Shown: positions 27,364 through 53,831, numbered from the stretch's first letter. The stretch: 64,000 nucleotides of DNA from a virus (IMGVR_UViG_3300028800_000002:122444-186443); one strand, 5' to 3'. Translations and numbers: made by a program. The notes: generated by a model from the letters alone, not told the origin.

Positions 27364-27396
27364 TGCTGTGCTCCTCTACTGTTCTTATCCCCGAGA

Positions 27397-31645: not shown

Positions 31646-31801
31646 CTAGTACAACACTGAGCTAAGTTTGGGGCACGACCCCGTCGGGCCGTGCTGTGCG
31701 CCATTTAGCTTCATGCAGCCCGTCAGCTTACTTATGTGCTCCCATGTGAATCTTATCCCAGGACAACTGGGAAAATTTCAAGTTTAGAGTAAGATGATCC
31801 G

Positions 31802-37545: not shown

Positions 37546-39111
37546 ATGAGTGAGTTCAATCCCAAGCAAAGCCAGGCGGCTTTCGGTGAGCTGCGCAAGT
37601 TGGCTGCCTCACGTCAGCGCATGGCGATACCACAGACGCGTTCCGGTCGCAGATCAATGACCGTAACAACGATGCTGAGAAAGGACAAGGAGGGTACTTT
37701 ATTTCGGCATTGGCACGATCATCTTCCAGGCGGGCTAGCAGACAAGAAGAAGCCACAAGATTTTGATTCTAAGTCGCTCGCGCAAGGGCAAGTAGTCGAG
37801 AGCGAGCACACGAGCCAGCCAGCCTTGGCTACTGAGATCGCCATGGATCACCTGACGGAGGATCCCAAGTACTACACGAAGCTCAACCGGATGGAAAAAG
37901 AAGGTGGGCTTGGAGATTTCCTGAAGACTCCAATCCCTGGCACGCGTGATTGGGTCCTGAATACAAGCAAGAATACGTTGCAGGGCGCACGCGCGATTAC
38001 GGGCCGAGCTCCAATACGGCCAAGCTTGTCCCCGGTGGCAGCCAATTCAGTAGCCCCTAGGTCTATGGTGCCTGCTGCGAAATCCATGAAGCCACCAGCC
38101 AGGTCTGTAGCTCCATCCGCGAGAGTCTCAGGCACAATGCCGGCAGCGCGCGGTGGTGTGTCTAGTATTTCCGAAGACGAGATGCGTCGGATGGGATTTA
38201 GTGATCTGCTGAAGTCAGGCTCGGTCATGGCCGAGTTGCGCCAAAAACTTGCCTACACGTTGCAAGGGCACATGAACGTGCAGGGTATCCCTATCTCAAT
38301 TGAGAACCGGAAGGGGTCCGTGCGCAAAGGGGTAGATCCCGACGGGAAGCCTTGGCGCACAGTGTTCAAGCTGCCCTATGGCTACATCACCGGTACGGAG
38401 GGCAATGACCACGAAGAGATTGATGCGTACGTAGGACCGCACAAGAAGGCCCCCAACGCTTTTGTTATCCATCAGCGGCACATCACAGGAAAGGGCTTCG
38501 ACGAGGACAAGGTCATGCTTGGCTTCGAGGACATTGATGAGGCCAAGAAGTTCTACCTAGACCATTACAACGGCGTGGGCAAAAAGCTCCTTGGACCTAT
38601 TTCCACCATCGCAGTCGACGAGTTGCGTCGACGTCTCGAGGAGAAACGCAAGCACACCAAGATTGCCGCAGTCGACATCATGAACTCATCGCTGTATACC
38701 GACAGCGTTGGGGCCAAGCCTCCGAAGAAACCTGGAGAACTTCCCGACATGGAAGGCTCAGATGCTCCGACTTCGAAGTTGGCTAAGCCGGAACTTTCGG
38801 CATTGTCTGATCCCACTGCAATCAAACTTTGGAAGTCATTCGATCAAGGGGCACCTGGAAAGAAAAAACTAGCTTGGGACGGAGTTGGTTCCACGGGCTC
38901 CCCGCTCACCAACAGCACGATGGCCCGCATTGATTCTGATGAAAAGCCTGATCGCGCGCATAAGGGGGACGTTCCTTCAAGGGATGGGACCAGCCCAGGA
39001 TCTGCGCTCACAGTCAAACATGAGGCCGGGCCAGACTTCATGACAACGCTTCCAACCGCCGCTGCGACGGAGAACGCTGGTTCCCAGACGGGCGCCACTA
39101 CGAGGATGTGA
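37546..39111 (+). CDS. Multidomain protein: DUF5661-like domain plus phage inorganic-pyrophosphatase-like (InPase) domain
   Basis: GQVVESEHT...EIAMDHLTEDPKYYTKL; ISIENRKGSVRKGVDPDGKPW...YGYITGTEGNDHEEIDAYVG...FDEDKVMLGF. Confidence 0.72.
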   Translation: MSEFNPKQSQAAFGELRKLAASRQRMAIPQTRSGRRSMTVTTMLRKDKEGTLFRHWHDHLPGGLADKKKPQDFDSKSLAQGQVVESEHTSQPALATEIAMDHLTEDPKYYTKLNRMEKEGGLGDFLKTPIPGTRDWVLNTSKNTLQGARAITGRAPIRPSLSPVAANSVAPRSMVPAAKSMKPPARSVAPSARVSGTMPAARGGVSSISEDEMRRMGFSDLLKSGSVMAELRQKLAYTLQGHMNVQGIPISIENRKGSVRKGVDPDGKPWRTVFKLPYGYITGTEGNDHEEIDAYVGPHKKAPNAFVIHQRHITGKGFDEDKVMLGFEDIDEAKKFYLDHYNGVGKKLLGPISTIAVDELRRRLEEKRKHTKIAAVDIMNSSLYTDSVGAKPPKKPGELPDMEGSDAPTSKLAKPELSALSDPTAIKLWKSFDQGAPGKKKLAWDGVGSTGSPLTNSTMARIDSDEKPDRAHKGDVPSRDGTSPGSALTVKHEAGPDFMTTLPTAAATENAGSQTGATTRM

Positions 39112-50322: not shown

Positions 50323-51113
50323 TGGACAACCGCGATTACCAGCTACGGCAAGTCTTGAGCGACGTCACCCAAGGGGCGGAGGTCATGCGCTACATGGCCT
50401 TGGCCATGGAGGTGATCCCAAACATCTGGGTGTCGGCCAACTTCTTGACCGCCCTAACAACCCCGCTTCGAGCTTTGGACGGGCTGCTGGGGGATTCTCC
50501 GCTTCCTGTGCGGCATCGGGCTGCGCGCAGGCTTCCCCTCCGCTTGGTAGTCAAGACGCGCGGTCGGCGCCCCATGAAGCGGACACTTGCCGAACGTGAG
50601 CTCCCCAACGCCCTACCCAAGCCCCCGGATATCTCCAGCCTTGGTTTTCTGTCCAGCGTTACCATTGAGGCGAAGATCAGGTCCATTTCGGAAGCCTCTG
50701 CGTGCCGGGCGCTGTTGCTTGAGATTGTGCGCCGCGCAGCTTTCGACTGGGTGCTGTACCGCTCGAGCTCGAAGCTCATCAACCGGCAGCTGGCTGAAGG
50801 AGCTCACAGCTGGCTCTTCATCGAGGAGCCTGACTCTTCACTGGGCCTCATTCGCCACAAGAGCGGCAAGTCCTTGACTAGTTTCGTGGCGATCTGCGAG
50901 CTGCTCGACCTTGACCCCGACAGCGTCCGTGAGCGCATCAAGCTGTTGACCCGGCAAGAGATCATGAATGCAGGCCGCCCCGCGGAGCGCCGCAAGCACA
51001 AGACCATCTCTGAGGATGCTCTGCACACGGATGATCTGCGAGTATTCGATGTCGATGTGGACTGCCTGCCAATCCATGATCCGTTGTATAGCTCATACGC
51101 AACGGATAGCTAA
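50322..51113 (+). CDS. Hypothetical phage protein
   Basis: LLEIVRRAAFDW...WLF...SFVAICELLDLDPDSVRERI helical motif. Confidence 0.6.
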   Translation: MDNRDYQLRQVLSDVTQGAEVMRYMALAMEVIPNIWVSANFLTALTTPLRALDGLLGDSPLPVRHRAARRLPLRLVVKTRGRRPMKRTLAERELPNALPKPPDISSLGFLSSVTIEAKIRSISEASACRALLLEIVRRAAFDWVLYRSSSKLINRQLAEGAHSWLFIEEPDSSLGLIRHKSGKSLTSFVAICELLDLDPDSVRERIKLLTRQEIMNAGRPAERRKHKTISEDALHTDDLRVFDVDVDCLPIHDPLYSSYATDS

Positions 51114-51142
51114 AAATAAGGGCACCGTTGTAGTGCCCTTAT
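51112..51142 (-). terminator. Intrinsic terminator closing the - strand array transcript (possibly bidirectional)
   Basis: 10-bp stem ATAAGGGCAC/GTGCCCTTAT, 7-nt loop; followed by a T-run on the - strand. Confidence 0.8.
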
Positions 51143-51512
51143 CCCAATGAAATCCAAACTAGTTCTATGCCCCGCCTCGGTTCAATGATTTCGACTGTGT
51201 TCCCTGAAGGACTTTGGATCAATGCTTGAATGCGTCTTCGGTATCACAGTTTGGTTCAATGTACGAACTTTACATTCGATACCCACGCTTGGCTCAATCT
51301 CCTTGTAACTCTTCGCTTCCTAGAAATGATTCAATAGCCATTCTTGTTTTCGCTGTTCACTATAGATTCAATAACTTGTATCGATATTCCATGGCCCGGC
51401 TCGGTTCAATGTTGGGCAAAGTCTTCGGTCTGTCTCGACGGTTCAATGAGCAGCGTGACGTTACGTGTGCGGCGTAAGTTCAATGTTGGACGTAAGCTTC
51501 GCTGTCGGGCTT
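51140..51512 (-). repeat. Dual-repeat interspaced array (TIGR-like architecture), 37-38 nt period
   Basis: Repeat 1 starts at 51140, 51178, 51215, 51252, 51290, 51327, 51364, 51402, 51439, 51476; repeat 2 (ANNGAANN) always 9 nt after repeat 1 on the - strand. Confidence 0.88.
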
Positions 51513-51966
51513 TGCAGCCGTTGCACTTGTGCTTTCGCTTAGGAACTTTTCCTAGTATTTCGAATACAACCCTGTGCGCTTGCGATAGAGTAATTGGGTT
51601 GTTGTTATGCTTGCGCGAGTCAAGACGTACAGCTGTCATGATTGCCGCAGTATTGGTCACATCAACTTTTCCGCTCACCCAAATGAGAGCTTCGTGACTC
51701 ATGTACTTCCCGTAGGACTTTCCTAAGCGGGCTAAGGCCACATGGATGTTCCTCCAGTAACGAAAGTATTTACGGGTTACACAATAGAGCCAATCGCTAC
51801 AGGTTTTTCCACCTGCCTCCTCAGTTCTGGTTGCATCCCATCTTGTGTTTAGCTCAATCACAAGCTCAGCCGCTTGCTGCAGATCGGTATTTGTGCGTAG
51901 TTTTGCAGCTAGCTTCTTGCCTATTACGTCTAAAGGATCTCGTGGATCAAAGGTATCATCGCTCAT
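51406..51966 (-). CDS. Uncharacterised array-associated protein
   Basis: SD AAGGAG; 186 aa, basic, helical, CNGC; 3' end is encoded by the first array units. Confidence 0.7.
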   Translation of the reverse strand: MSDDTFDPRDPLDVIGKKLAAKLRTNTDLQQAAELVIELNTRWDATRTEEAGGKTCSDWLYCVTRKYFRYWRNIHVALARLGKSYGKYMSHEALIWVSGKVDVTNTAAIMTAVRLDSRKHNNNPITLSQAHRVVFEILGKVPKRKHKCNGCKARQRSLRPTLNLRRTRNVTLLIEPSRQTEDFAQH

Positions 51967-51987
51967 TACTGGGCTCCTTCTGAAATA

Positions 51988-51995
51988 CTTATCCC
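51988..51995 (-). promoter_or_regulatory. GGGATAAG promoter-like motif upstream of array-associated gene
   Basis: Same motif at same distance from SD at 27384-27391 and 27626-27634. Confidence 0.45.
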
Positions 51996-52988: not shown

Positions 52989-53831
52989 ATGGCCTTCAAA
53001 GGTAGGGGCCATCTAGAGCGCGCCATTCTTTGCCCTGAGTGCGGAGTGCCCATGGCGGAAAGGATGAGTGCCAAGTACGGGGGCTTTTACGGGTGCACCA
53101 GGTTCCCCCTCTGTGTTGGCACCCGCCCAGGTAAGGCAGGCCTCAATTCCTACACCAAGCTGCTGCACGAGGCTTACGCCAAGGCCTTGGTCTTTCTCAG
53201 CAGCCCCAGGCTTCTTGGAGCACAGGTAGCCTCGCTTTGGCTGATGTGTCGAGCGCTAGATTTGGACGATGATGAAACAGTAGCTGAACTACCAGCGCCG
53301 ACAGATCTGACTGATGCGGCATTGGAGAAGGCTATTGATGCAGCGGTGGCCTACGTGGTTGAGCACGGCTTTGACCAAGACTTCTTGGTGTTGGCGCACA
53401 GCGAGCGCTTGCTGCACATCAAGAGCAAGTTCAAGGCCAACATTACCCCGGACAGGATCCGCGCACTACCCAAGCCGGCAATTGTTCGCAGGTATGACGA
53501 AGGCACTTTGCTGCAACTTGAGGCAGCTATCACCGCAGACTGGAACAGTGAGGGCATGTACTGCCCGCGCTGTGGTAGTTGGGCAGAAAAGTGCCGAGTT
53601 GCTACGAATATCGATGGACTGCACTTCGACCTCGAAGCCGATGACGATATGCTCCCGTTTATTGGCTTCAACTGCACTGAGTGTGGAGAATTCAAGAAGC
53701 GCGGCAAAGTATATGTCTTCACAAATGACGTGGGTGAGCCTGGTGTAGTTCCGGGTATTGCCTTGGATGCCCCAGAAAGAATGCGCGAGGAAGATAGGCC
53801 AAGGATTGTATTCGATGTCGACAAAGACTGA
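52989..53831 (+). CDS. Protein with topoisomerase-type C4 zinc ribbon
   Basis: CPECGVPMAERMSAKYGGFYGCTRFPLC; second CPRC...CTEC. Confidence 0.7.
   Translation: MAFKGRGHLERAILCPECGVPMAERMSAKYGGFYGCTRFPLCVGTRPGKAGLNSYTKLLHEAYAKALVFLSSPRLLGAQVASLWLMCRALDLDDDETVAELPAPTDLTDAALEKAIDAAVAYVVEHGFDQDFLVLAHSERLLHIKSKFKANITPDRIRALPKPAIVRRYDEGTLLQLEAAITADWNSEGMYCPRCGSWAEKCRVATNIDGLHFDLEADDDMLPFIGFNCTECGEFKKRGKVYVFTNDVGEPGVVPGIALDAPERMREEDRPRIVFDVDKD

What the first reader, a model, noticed from the sequence alone, without database searches (positions are those of the whole stretch)
51112..51995. Self-contained unit: promoter-like motif, orphan 186-aa gene, array, terminator; the gene is the candidate effector or processing protein
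Seen: on the - strand, in an otherwise + strand neighbourhood, GGGATAAG (51995-51988), SD AAGGAG, ORF 51966-51406, the array and a perfect 10-bp terminator hairpin follow each other without gaps. The protein is basic and helical (RWDATRTEEAGGKTCSDWLYCVTRKYFRYWRNIHVALARLGKSYGKYMSHEALIW) and has KRKHKCNGC. Its last ~35 codons are encoded by the first array units, so the array appears to have grown into or out of the gene end. I see no Nop, RuvC, HNH or Cas motif. Inference: gene and array form one functional module, with the protein binding the array RNA or the repeat DNA.
Basis: partly seen in the sequence, partly recalled or inferred. Interest (0 to 1): 0.8.

Follow-up and report, generated by a model that had tools for sequence, protein, structure and literature searches.

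The report
Orphan remnant of a TIGR-Tas locus
The repeats are the last ten units of a TIGR guide-RNA array whose Tas protein gene was recently deleted from this 186-kb phage; the 186-aa gene is the truncated neighbour of that lost gene, not the RNA-binding effector, so this is a decayed copy of a system described in 2025.

Summary
The array is a dual-repeat TIGR array, the kind defined by Faure et al. 2025. It has ten units of 37-38 nt. Each has an edge repeat (CATTGAACCA), an 8-9 nt spacer, a loop repeat (CAnCGAAGACA) and an 8 nt spacer. It ends in a truncated edge repeat and a terminator.

Three close metagenomic relatives carry the intact locus: geneA (179-184 aa), a 369-392 aa gene, then 24-48 such units. 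The middle gene is a nuclease-free TasA. Its profile hits TasR and TasH structures at E = 4.6e-35 and 2e-24, and its fold matches them with probability 1.0.

Against the nearest relative (99.7% identical flanks) the window lacks 2,729 bp. The deletion lies between two copies of a 10-bp microhomology. It removed the geneA tail, all of tasA and 38 of 48 units. The "array grown into the gene" is therefore a deletion scar. The complete phage genome has no tas gene.

The 186-aa ORF is not the effector. Its family does sit directly upstream of tas in all 11 loci where that side could be read. It has no detectable fold or domain.

This is a known kind of system, and the scan has already reported it in at least 34 other genomes. 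Interest is modest.

The parts
51988..51995 (-). GGGATAAG motif, 22 nt upstream of the start codon. Probably part of a phage promoter or leader element.
   Evidence: The phage genome has 12 copies, 10 of them on the - strand. Seven are followed within about 30 nt by GAAGGAG-type SD plus ATG. Relative L004 has it at the same place. Promoter function is inferred, not shown.
51974..51979 (-). Shine-Dalgarno AAGGAG
   Evidence: Read directly from the sequence.
51505..51966 (-). Codons 1-154 of geneA, the conserved gene found upstream of tas. The native last 25 codons are lost.
   Evidence: One mismatch in 461 nt against L001 geneA. The protein alignment diverges after KCNGCKAR. The family lies directly upstream of tas in L001, L004, L007, the P0002 contig, L015-L018, L020, L021 and L023.
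51506..51515 (-). Deletion junction: the single remaining copy of the 10-bp microhomology GCAAAGCCCG.
   Evidence: L001 1-2201 aligns to window 53706-51506. L001 4931-6280 aligns to window 51515-50166. The two alignments overlap by 10 bp, and L001 2202-4930 (2,729 bp) is missing.
51406..51504 (-). Out-of-context ORF tail: 32 codons plus the stop, read from TIGR units 1-3.
   Evidence: The sequence is identical to array units at L001 4941-5040.
51142..51515 (-). TIGR array remnant, ten units. Each is edge repeat C-ATTGAAC-CA, spacer A (8-9 nt), loop repeat CA-n-C-GAAG-ACA and spacer B (8 nt). The last edge repeat is truncated at its 3' end (CATTGgga).
   Evidence: Unit table. Logo of 104 related units. 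These are the same ten units as L001 4931-5305, with 4 SNPs. Periodicity statistics.
51112..51142 (-). Rho-independent terminator: 10-bp perfect stem, 7-nt loop, T-run.
   Evidence: The same hairpin closes the arrays of L001 and L004.

Best explanation
The stretch is the relic of a phage TIGR-TasA locus. TIGR-TasA is an RNA-guided, nuclease-free DNA-binding system.

The intact ancestor was one operon: promoter, geneA, tasA, about 48 TIGR units, terminator. By analogy with characterised systems, the operon transcript carries the array, and TasA cuts it in the edge repeats using a Tyr/His loop. This gives tigRNAs of about 37-38 nt. A TasA dimer carrying one tigRNA pairs spacer A with one DNA strand and spacer B with the other. 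It occupies the site without cutting, which represses transcription or blocks the target.

In this phage a 2,729-bp deletion between two copies of GCAAAGCCCG removed the last 25 codons of geneA, all of tasA and the first 38 units. What remains is a truncated geneA fused in frame to array sequence, ten units and the terminator. These are probably still transcribed from the retained promoter. No Tas protein is encoded anywhere in the complete 186-kb genome, so the ten guides can be neither processed nor used by the phage itself. The remnant is most likely non-functional.

Shown here: the anatomy, the homology, the deletion and the absence of tas. Inferred: transcription, processing, the repressor mode, and the loss of function.
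For: 1. The array matches the published definition of a dual-repeat TIGR array (PMC12045711, read). It has two alternating 10-11 nt repeats, two 8-9 nt spacers and a 37-38 nt period. It ends in a 3'-truncated edge repeat plus a terminator.
2. Relatives L001, L004 and L007 have geneA, then a 369-392 aa gene, then 48, 35 and 24 such units.
3. A profile of that middle gene's family hits TasR chain 9mty_A at E = 4.6e-35, TasH chain 21kl_A at 2e-24 and IS621 at 5e-3. 32 of 62 family members hit Pfam Transposase_20.
4. Its model (pLDDT 83.6) finds TasH and TasR structures at probability 1.0, and then the IS110-family recombinases IS621 and ISCro4.
5. No HNH or RuvC domain is found in the family. His314 is invariant in 62 of 62 members and Tyr305 is present in 44 of 62. 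They occupy the position of the SpTasH processing residues Y289 and H296.
6. 8 of 9 distant tas loci have an adjacent 37-38 nt array with related boxes (CGAATGACA, GAGCCA).
7. The window is 99.68% and 99.63% identical to L001 on the two sides of a clean 2,729-bp gap at a 10-bp microhomology.
8. The intact geneA form is seen in three independent assemblies.
9. There is no tas in the complete genome, which has direct terminal repeats, by either protein or profile search. The same profile finds tas in control records.
10. TasA proteins have been shown to act as RNA-guided repressors (bioRxiv 10.64898/2026.09.09.750476).
Against: - Transcription, lack of processing and the reality of the deletion in the phage population are therefore unverified.
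- The loop repeat carries CG...ACA instead of the UG...CCA of the TasR consensus.
- The unit is 37-38 nt rather than 36, and spacer A varies between 8 and 9 nt within one array. The 2025 paper describes spacer size as constant within a locus.
- No target was found for any spacer pair.
- A Tas protein supplied in trans cannot be excluded.
Confidence: 0.85

Rival explanations
1. One reading: the 186-aa protein is itself the effector or processing protein. It binds the array RNA or the repeat DNA, and gene plus array form a self-contained unit.
For: Homologs of the gene (22-29% identity, or HMM E = 2e-12 to 1e-68) lie immediately upstream of tas in every locus where that side could be read. Arrays are present in the loci that could be scanned. 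The protein is basic and has a conserved CxxC.
Against: - In all relatives a TasA gene sits between it and the array, or next to it in the distant loci.
- Tas proteins are the demonstrated tigRNA binders and processors.
- The protein has no similarity to Tas or Nop (hhalign probability 0.3%) and no Pfam, PHROG, PADLOC or PDB match.
- The copy here has lost its conserved C-terminal helix.
Confidence: 0.05
2. The orphan array is kept because it still works in trans. Either it supplies guides to a TasA encoded by a co-infecting relative or a prophage, or it acts as a decoy that soaks up a competitor's TasA.
For: The promoter motif, ten well-formed units and the terminator are all retained. Near-identical phages carrying tasA exist in other samples.
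Against: The flanks are 99.7% identical to the intact form. The deletion is therefore too recent for retention to indicate selection. The end points are set by a chance 10-bp microhomology and not by unit boundaries.
Confidence: 0.08
3. The repeats act as DNA: iterons or a centromere-like site, of the sopC or parC kind, bound by the adjacent protein for replication or partition.
For: The layout of genes followed by a phased array of short boxes resembles sopABC. The period is strict.
Against: - Arrays of the same build accompany Tas genes in 11 loci.
- The boxes match the TIGR box D/box C logic.
- The array is bounded by a strand-specific terminator.
- No ParA, ParB or Rep domain is found in geneA or in TasA.
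Confidence: 0.02
4. The deletion is an assembly artefact or a minority variant, and the real phage carries the full locus.
For: Only this one record shows the deleted form. Three assemblies show the intact form. Repeat arrays are hard to assemble, and contigs L002 and L003 break in or near the array.
Against: A 10-bp repeat is much shorter than assembler k-mers. The junction is a clean microhomology-type join inside a complete contig with direct terminal repeats.
Confidence: 0.1

Closest known systems
Dual-repeat TIGR-TasA systems, for example FpTIGR of Flavonifractor plautii and MbTasA (Faure et al. 2025, PMC12045711; Xu et al. 2026, bioRxiv 10.64898/2026.09.09.750476)
   Same: - Alternating edge and loop repeats with two short spacers.
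- A truncated last edge repeat followed by a terminator.
- In the relatives, a nuclease-free Nop-domain Tas protein with a Tyr/His processing loop.
- Carried by a phage.
   Different: - Here the tas gene and 38 units are deleted.
- Units are 37-38 nt, not 36.
- Spacer A is 8 or 9 nt within one array.
- The loop repeat has CG...ACA where the TasR consensus has UG...CCA.
- The intact relatives have 24-48 units. 5-15 is stated as usual, and the average over 4,126 arrays is about 16.
- A constant unknown partner gene lies upstream.
SpTIGR-TasH of Salicola phage CGphi29 (PDB 9w03, 9w04, 21kl; PMC13421893)
   Same: Best structural match of the relatives' Tas protein. Spacers are 8 + 8 nt. It is phage-borne. 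Processing is autonomous through a Tyr/His pair.
   Different: TasH has an N-terminal HNH nuclease and cuts DNA. The protein family here has none.
tasParB-tasA operons (Faure et al. 2025, fig. S14)
   Same: A small gene operonic with tasA. Arrays have 10-nt repeats and lie downstream of the two genes or between them.
   Different: GeneA shows no ParB signal. The Pfam ParB_N search of the genome is negative while its controls are positive. The PDB profile search gives no ParB hit. The predicted secondary structure is all helical. HHpred-level homology was not tested.
Orphan or degenerate CRISPR arrays left by loss of cas genes
   Same: A guide array stranded without its effector after a deletion.
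   Different: A different system. Here the exact ancestral state and the break points can be read from a relative that is 99.7% identical.

Membership tests
TIGR array (dual-repeat type) | Two distinct alternating short repeats (8-12 nt) separated by two short variable spacers (about 8-12 nt) | tested here: met
   The logo of 104 units gives an edge repeat C-ATTGAAC-C-A and a loop repeat C-A-n-c-G-A-A-g-a-C. Between them the information content is about 0. The window units are listed.
TIGR array (dual-repeat type) | Regular unit of about 36 nt | tested here: met
   The period is 37 nt in 67 units, 38 in 32, 36 in 4 and 39 in 1. That is 1-2 nt longer than the type systems. Distant relatives have a strict 38.
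TIGR array (dual-repeat type) | Both repeats begin with box D (UG) and end with box C (CCA), or with covarying equivalents | tested here: inconclusive
   The edge repeat is UG-AA-CCA. The loop repeat is (C/U)G-AAG-ACA. The two are related but not identical. Protein contacts were not modelled.
TIGR array (dual-repeat type) | [quoted passage not shown] | tested here: met
   CATTGgga is followed by a 10-bp hairpin and a T-run. L001 and L004 are the same.
TIGR array (dual-repeat type) | Adjacent gene for a Nop-domain Tas protein | tested here: not met
   No tas is found in the window or in the complete genome (control). It is present in L001, whose flanks are 99.7% identical, and in L004 and L007. 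The window therefore holds an orphan remnant of a member locus.
TIGR array (dual-repeat type) | Transcribed and processed into unit-length tigRNAs bound by Tas | not testable with these tools
No RNA data were obtained.
TasA (solo Nop-domain Tas protein): the relatives' 369-392 aa gene | Nop / IS110-Tnp-like RNA-binding domain homologous to solved Tas proteins | tested here: met
   The profile hits 9mty_A at E = 4.6e-35 and 21kl_A at 2e-24. Foldseek gives probability 1.0 to TasH and TasR. PF02371 is found in 32 of 62 members.
TasA (solo Nop-domain Tas protein): the relatives' 369-392 aa gene | No HNH or RuvC nuclease domain | tested here: met
   No HNH hit in 62 members, and a single weak DEDD hit at E = 0.079. 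The N-terminal 44 residues are disordered or form a single helix.
TasA (solo Nop-domain Tas protein): the relatives' 369-392 aa gene | Tyr/His processing loop of dual-repeat Tas proteins | tested here: met
   His314 is present in 62 of 62 members and Tyr305 in 44 of 62. They align with SpTasH Y289 and H296, with a 2-residue offset. Catalysis was not tested.
Tas protein: the window's 186-aa ORF | Nop domain | tested here: not met
   No Pfam, PHROG or PADLOC hit. hhalign against the Tas family gives probability 0.3%. The PDB profile search gives no Tas hit.
TasParB: the window's 186-aa ORF | ParB-like N-terminal domain | tested here: inconclusive
   The Pfam ParB_N search finds nothing in the genome, while 11 of 14 control genomes ring. 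There is no ParB among the PDB profile hits. The structural model is too poor to decide (pLDDT 58).

The most novel reading that the evidence does not exclude
The geneA family is a constant third component of one TasA clade that has not been described. It has about 180-215 aa and is predicted all helical. It has conserved Trp43, Arg47, Trp59, His91 and Pro124 and a C-terminal CxxC plus helix. It would act with TasA, for example as a recruited effector, a regulator of the operon, or a factor in making or loading guides. The deletion in this phage would then be a natural double knockout.
Probability: 0.3. Interest if true: 0.55.

Novelty: new member of a known kind. Interest (0 to 1): 0.3.

Why it matters
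It turns an apparently self-contained "orphan gene plus array" into a mapped decay event in a TIGR-TasA locus. This shows that the system is dispensable for the phage, at least in the short term. It also shows that tools which start from tas genes will miss stranded arrays of this kind.

Three by-products may interest people who work on TIGR-Tas:

- Arrays of up to 48 guides.
- Spacer A length varying within a single array.
- A partner gene found upstream of tas in every locus of this clade that could be examined. The published work describes TasA as lacking clear partners apart from an occasional ParB-like gene.

Tried and rejected
- **Repeat and RNA scans.** Tandem Repeats Finder found nothing, Rfam found nothing and there are no tRNAs. 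The units are too diverged for these tools.
- **GeneA in viral contigs.** The single-protein search gave no relative.
- **GeneA fold.** The AlphaFold2 model from 4 sequences is poor (pLDDT 58). Foldseek gave no match at E <= 0.001. VIA-align gave only generic three-helix bundles at Z <= 8.1. The ESM Atlas feature search scored below 0.9. No fold can be assigned.
- **Complex of TasA with geneA product.** Complex prediction gave no verdict (score 0.00, controls not run). This says nothing either way.
- **Targets of the guides.** 104 spacer pairs from L001, L004 and L007 were searched against the 186-kb phage genome. Four strand arrangements and gaps of 0-4 nt were tried, allowing up to 2 mismatches. 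Counts equal those for shuffled pairings, and there was no perfect match. The host is unknown, and 16-17 nt guides are too short for database-wide searches.
- **Spacer relatedness.** Spacers within and between arrays are as different as random sequence, apart from one adjacent pair in L001 (the script stopped before the L007 comparisons).
- **Three-unit 112-nt rhythm.** The 37-37-38 pattern holds only for these last units and not for the rest of the L001 array. Identity at lag 112 (0.431) does not exceed identity at lag 37 (0.445). There is no sign of a higher-order duplication.
- **Iteron/centromere, type III toxin-antitoxin and box C/D sRNA readings.** These were considered early and dropped once the Tas homology was found.

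Full report
**Observation.** On the - strand the window reads, without gaps, as follows.

- GGGATAAG at 51995-51988.
- AAGGAG at 51979-51974.
- An ATG-started ORF at 51966-51406, 186 aa.
- Ten phased boxes of the ATTGAAC type.
- A hairpin with a perfect 10-bp core and a T-run, ending at 51112.

The boxes are spaced 37, 37, 38, repeated three times. Each is preceded at a fixed 12 nt by a second box, CGAAG. Self-identity at lag 37 is 0.445. Shuffles give 0.302 +/- 0.013, with 0 of 2000 reaching the observed value, and none of 335 tiles of the window reaches it. Standard scans (TRF, Rfam, tRNA) see nothing. The window is the last 64 kb of a 186,443-bp virus record with direct terminal repeats, rated complete. 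Its neighbours are phage structural and unknown genes.

**Relatives show the full locus.** The 186-aa protein has only four database relatives, at 69-91% identity. All are on phage-like metagenomic contigs. In each, the gene (179-209 aa; geneA below) is followed after 2-34 nt by a 369-392 aa gene. Where DNA was available, a long non-coding stretch comes next. That stretch is the same kind of array: 48 units in L001, 35 in L004 and 24 in L007. In L001 and L004 it closes with the same terminator hairpin.

A logo of 104 units gives this order:

- Edge repeat C-ATTGAAC-C-A.
- Spacer of 8-9 nt with no information content.
- Loop repeat C-A-n-c-G-A-A-g-a-C.
- Spacer of exactly 8 nt.

**Identity of the middle gene.** It has no Pfam hit on its own but belongs to a family of 306 clusters.

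- A profile of 62 members hits PDB 9mty_A (TasR) at E = 4.6e-35, 21kl_A (TasH) at 2e-24 and the IS621 recombinase at 5e-3.
- 32 of 62 members reach Pfam Transposase_20, and none has an HNH or RuvC domain.
- The AlphaFold2 model (pLDDT 83.6) retrieves TasH and TasR cryo-EM structures at probability 1.0, then IS621 and ISCro4.
- His314 is invariant and Tyr305 is common. They align with the tigRNA-processing residues Y289 and H296 of SpTasH.

It is therefore a nuclease-free TasA.

**Identity of the array.** It fits the published definition of a dual-repeat TIGR array. That definition is alternating edge and loop repeats of 8-12 nt, short spacers, and a truncated last edge repeat followed by a terminator (PMC12045711). 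Eight of nine more distant tas loci from viral contigs also carry adjacent 37-38 nt arrays with related boxes.

**What happened in this phage.** L001 aligns to the window at 99.68% over 2,201 nt on one side and at 99.63% over 1,350 nt on the other. Between the two alignments, 2,729 bp of L001 are missing. The alignments overlap by 10 bp, GCAAAGCCCG. In L001 this sequence occurs once near the end of geneA and once in the spacer region of unit 38.

The deletion removed the last 25 codons of geneA, all of tasA and 38 of 48 units. GeneA therefore now reads on through array units 1-3 for 32 codons.

Neither a protein search nor a family-profile search finds any tas in the complete genome. The same profile finds tas in two control phage records. 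The intact geneA form occurs in three independent assemblies. A minority variant or an assembly error therefore remains possible. A 10-bp repeat is too short, however, to mislead an assembler.

**Mechanism.** In intact relatives the operon transcript carries the array. TasA should cut it in the edge repeats into tigRNAs of about 37-38 nt. As a dimer, it should then use spacer A and spacer B to pair with the two strands of a DNA site. Having no nuclease, it would act as a repressor or a block, as shown for other TasA proteins. This is inference by homology.

In the window the promoter-side motif, ten units and the terminator survive, so a transcript is likely. Without Tas it should be neither processed nor used. 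The near-identity of the flanks means the loss is recent, so the survival of the remnant says nothing about selection.

**The 186-aa gene.** It is not related to Tas (hhalign probability 0.3%). It has no Pfam, PHROG, PADLOC or PDB match. Yet tblastn and an HMM find homologs directly upstream of tas in L015, L016, L017, L018, L020, L021 and L023, as well as in the four close relatives. That is every locus where the upstream side is present.

The family has conserved W43, R47, W59, H91 and P124, with a C-terminal CxxC plus helix. It could be the ParB-like partner noted by Faure et al., but a Pfam ParB_N search is negative with positive controls. Structure prediction was poor, and the complex test gave no verdict. 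Its role is open. The copy here lacks the conserved C-terminal helix.

**Other checks.**

- Spacer pairs of 104 units show no enrichment of matches in the phage's own genome.
- Spacers are as different from each other as random sequence.
- The 3-unit rhythm is local and carries no extra similarity.
- GGGATAAG recurs before SD plus ATG of seven - strand genes in the genome.

**Verdict.** The thing is a decayed member of the TIGR-Tas family, first described in 2025. This scan has already reported the family in at least 34 other genomes. Another note on this same stretch reads the array as TIGR-like without a Tas gene. The case is ordinary in kind. It has some value as a base-exact natural knockout and for the constant unknown partner gene.

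Noticed in passing
window 27384-27391, 31752-31759, 51988-51995 (- strand), and G000 18271, 22190, 23112, 23766, 28688: GGGATAAG followed by aa...GAAGGAG...ATG recurs upstream of - strand genes. 10 of its 12 genome copies are on the - strand. It may be a phage-specific promoter or leader element for one gene class.
   Followed up: partly
L016:4521-5098, L020:4581-5138, L021:4241-5119: In more distant relatives the 37-38 nt array lies between the geneA homolog and tas. It appears to overlap the ends of those ORFs. So real array-in-gene overlaps may exist in this clade, even though the one in the window is a deletion scar.
   Followed up: no
L017:6433-6508 and L001:3660-3740: L017 has two adjacent identical units. 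L001 has two adjacent units sharing spacer A (CGATTAGC). This hints that arrays grow by unit duplication followed by divergence.
   Followed up: no
L004:2565-3906: Relative L004 has an 86-aa gene and a 366-aa gene, co-oriented, directly upstream of geneA. Neither has a Pfam or PADLOC hit. The 86-aa gene also occurs in L007 and in the P0002 contig.
   Followed up: no
G000:C1:58200-58510 (outside the window): A stretch with 36-nt periodicity is a collagen-like Gly-X-Y repeat (GATGATGPAG...) inside a + strand ORF, probably a fibre protein. It is not a guide array.
   Followed up: yes
window 52989-53831 (+): A 280-aa protein with an N-terminal topoisomerase-type C4 zinc ribbon (PF01396, E = 2.7e-8) and nothing else recognisable.
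   Followed up: no
window 37546-39111 (+): A 521-aa protein combining DUF5661 with an InPase domain (PF18823, E = 4.5e-38). It resembles modules of phage polyvalent or virion-delivered proteins.
   Followed up: no
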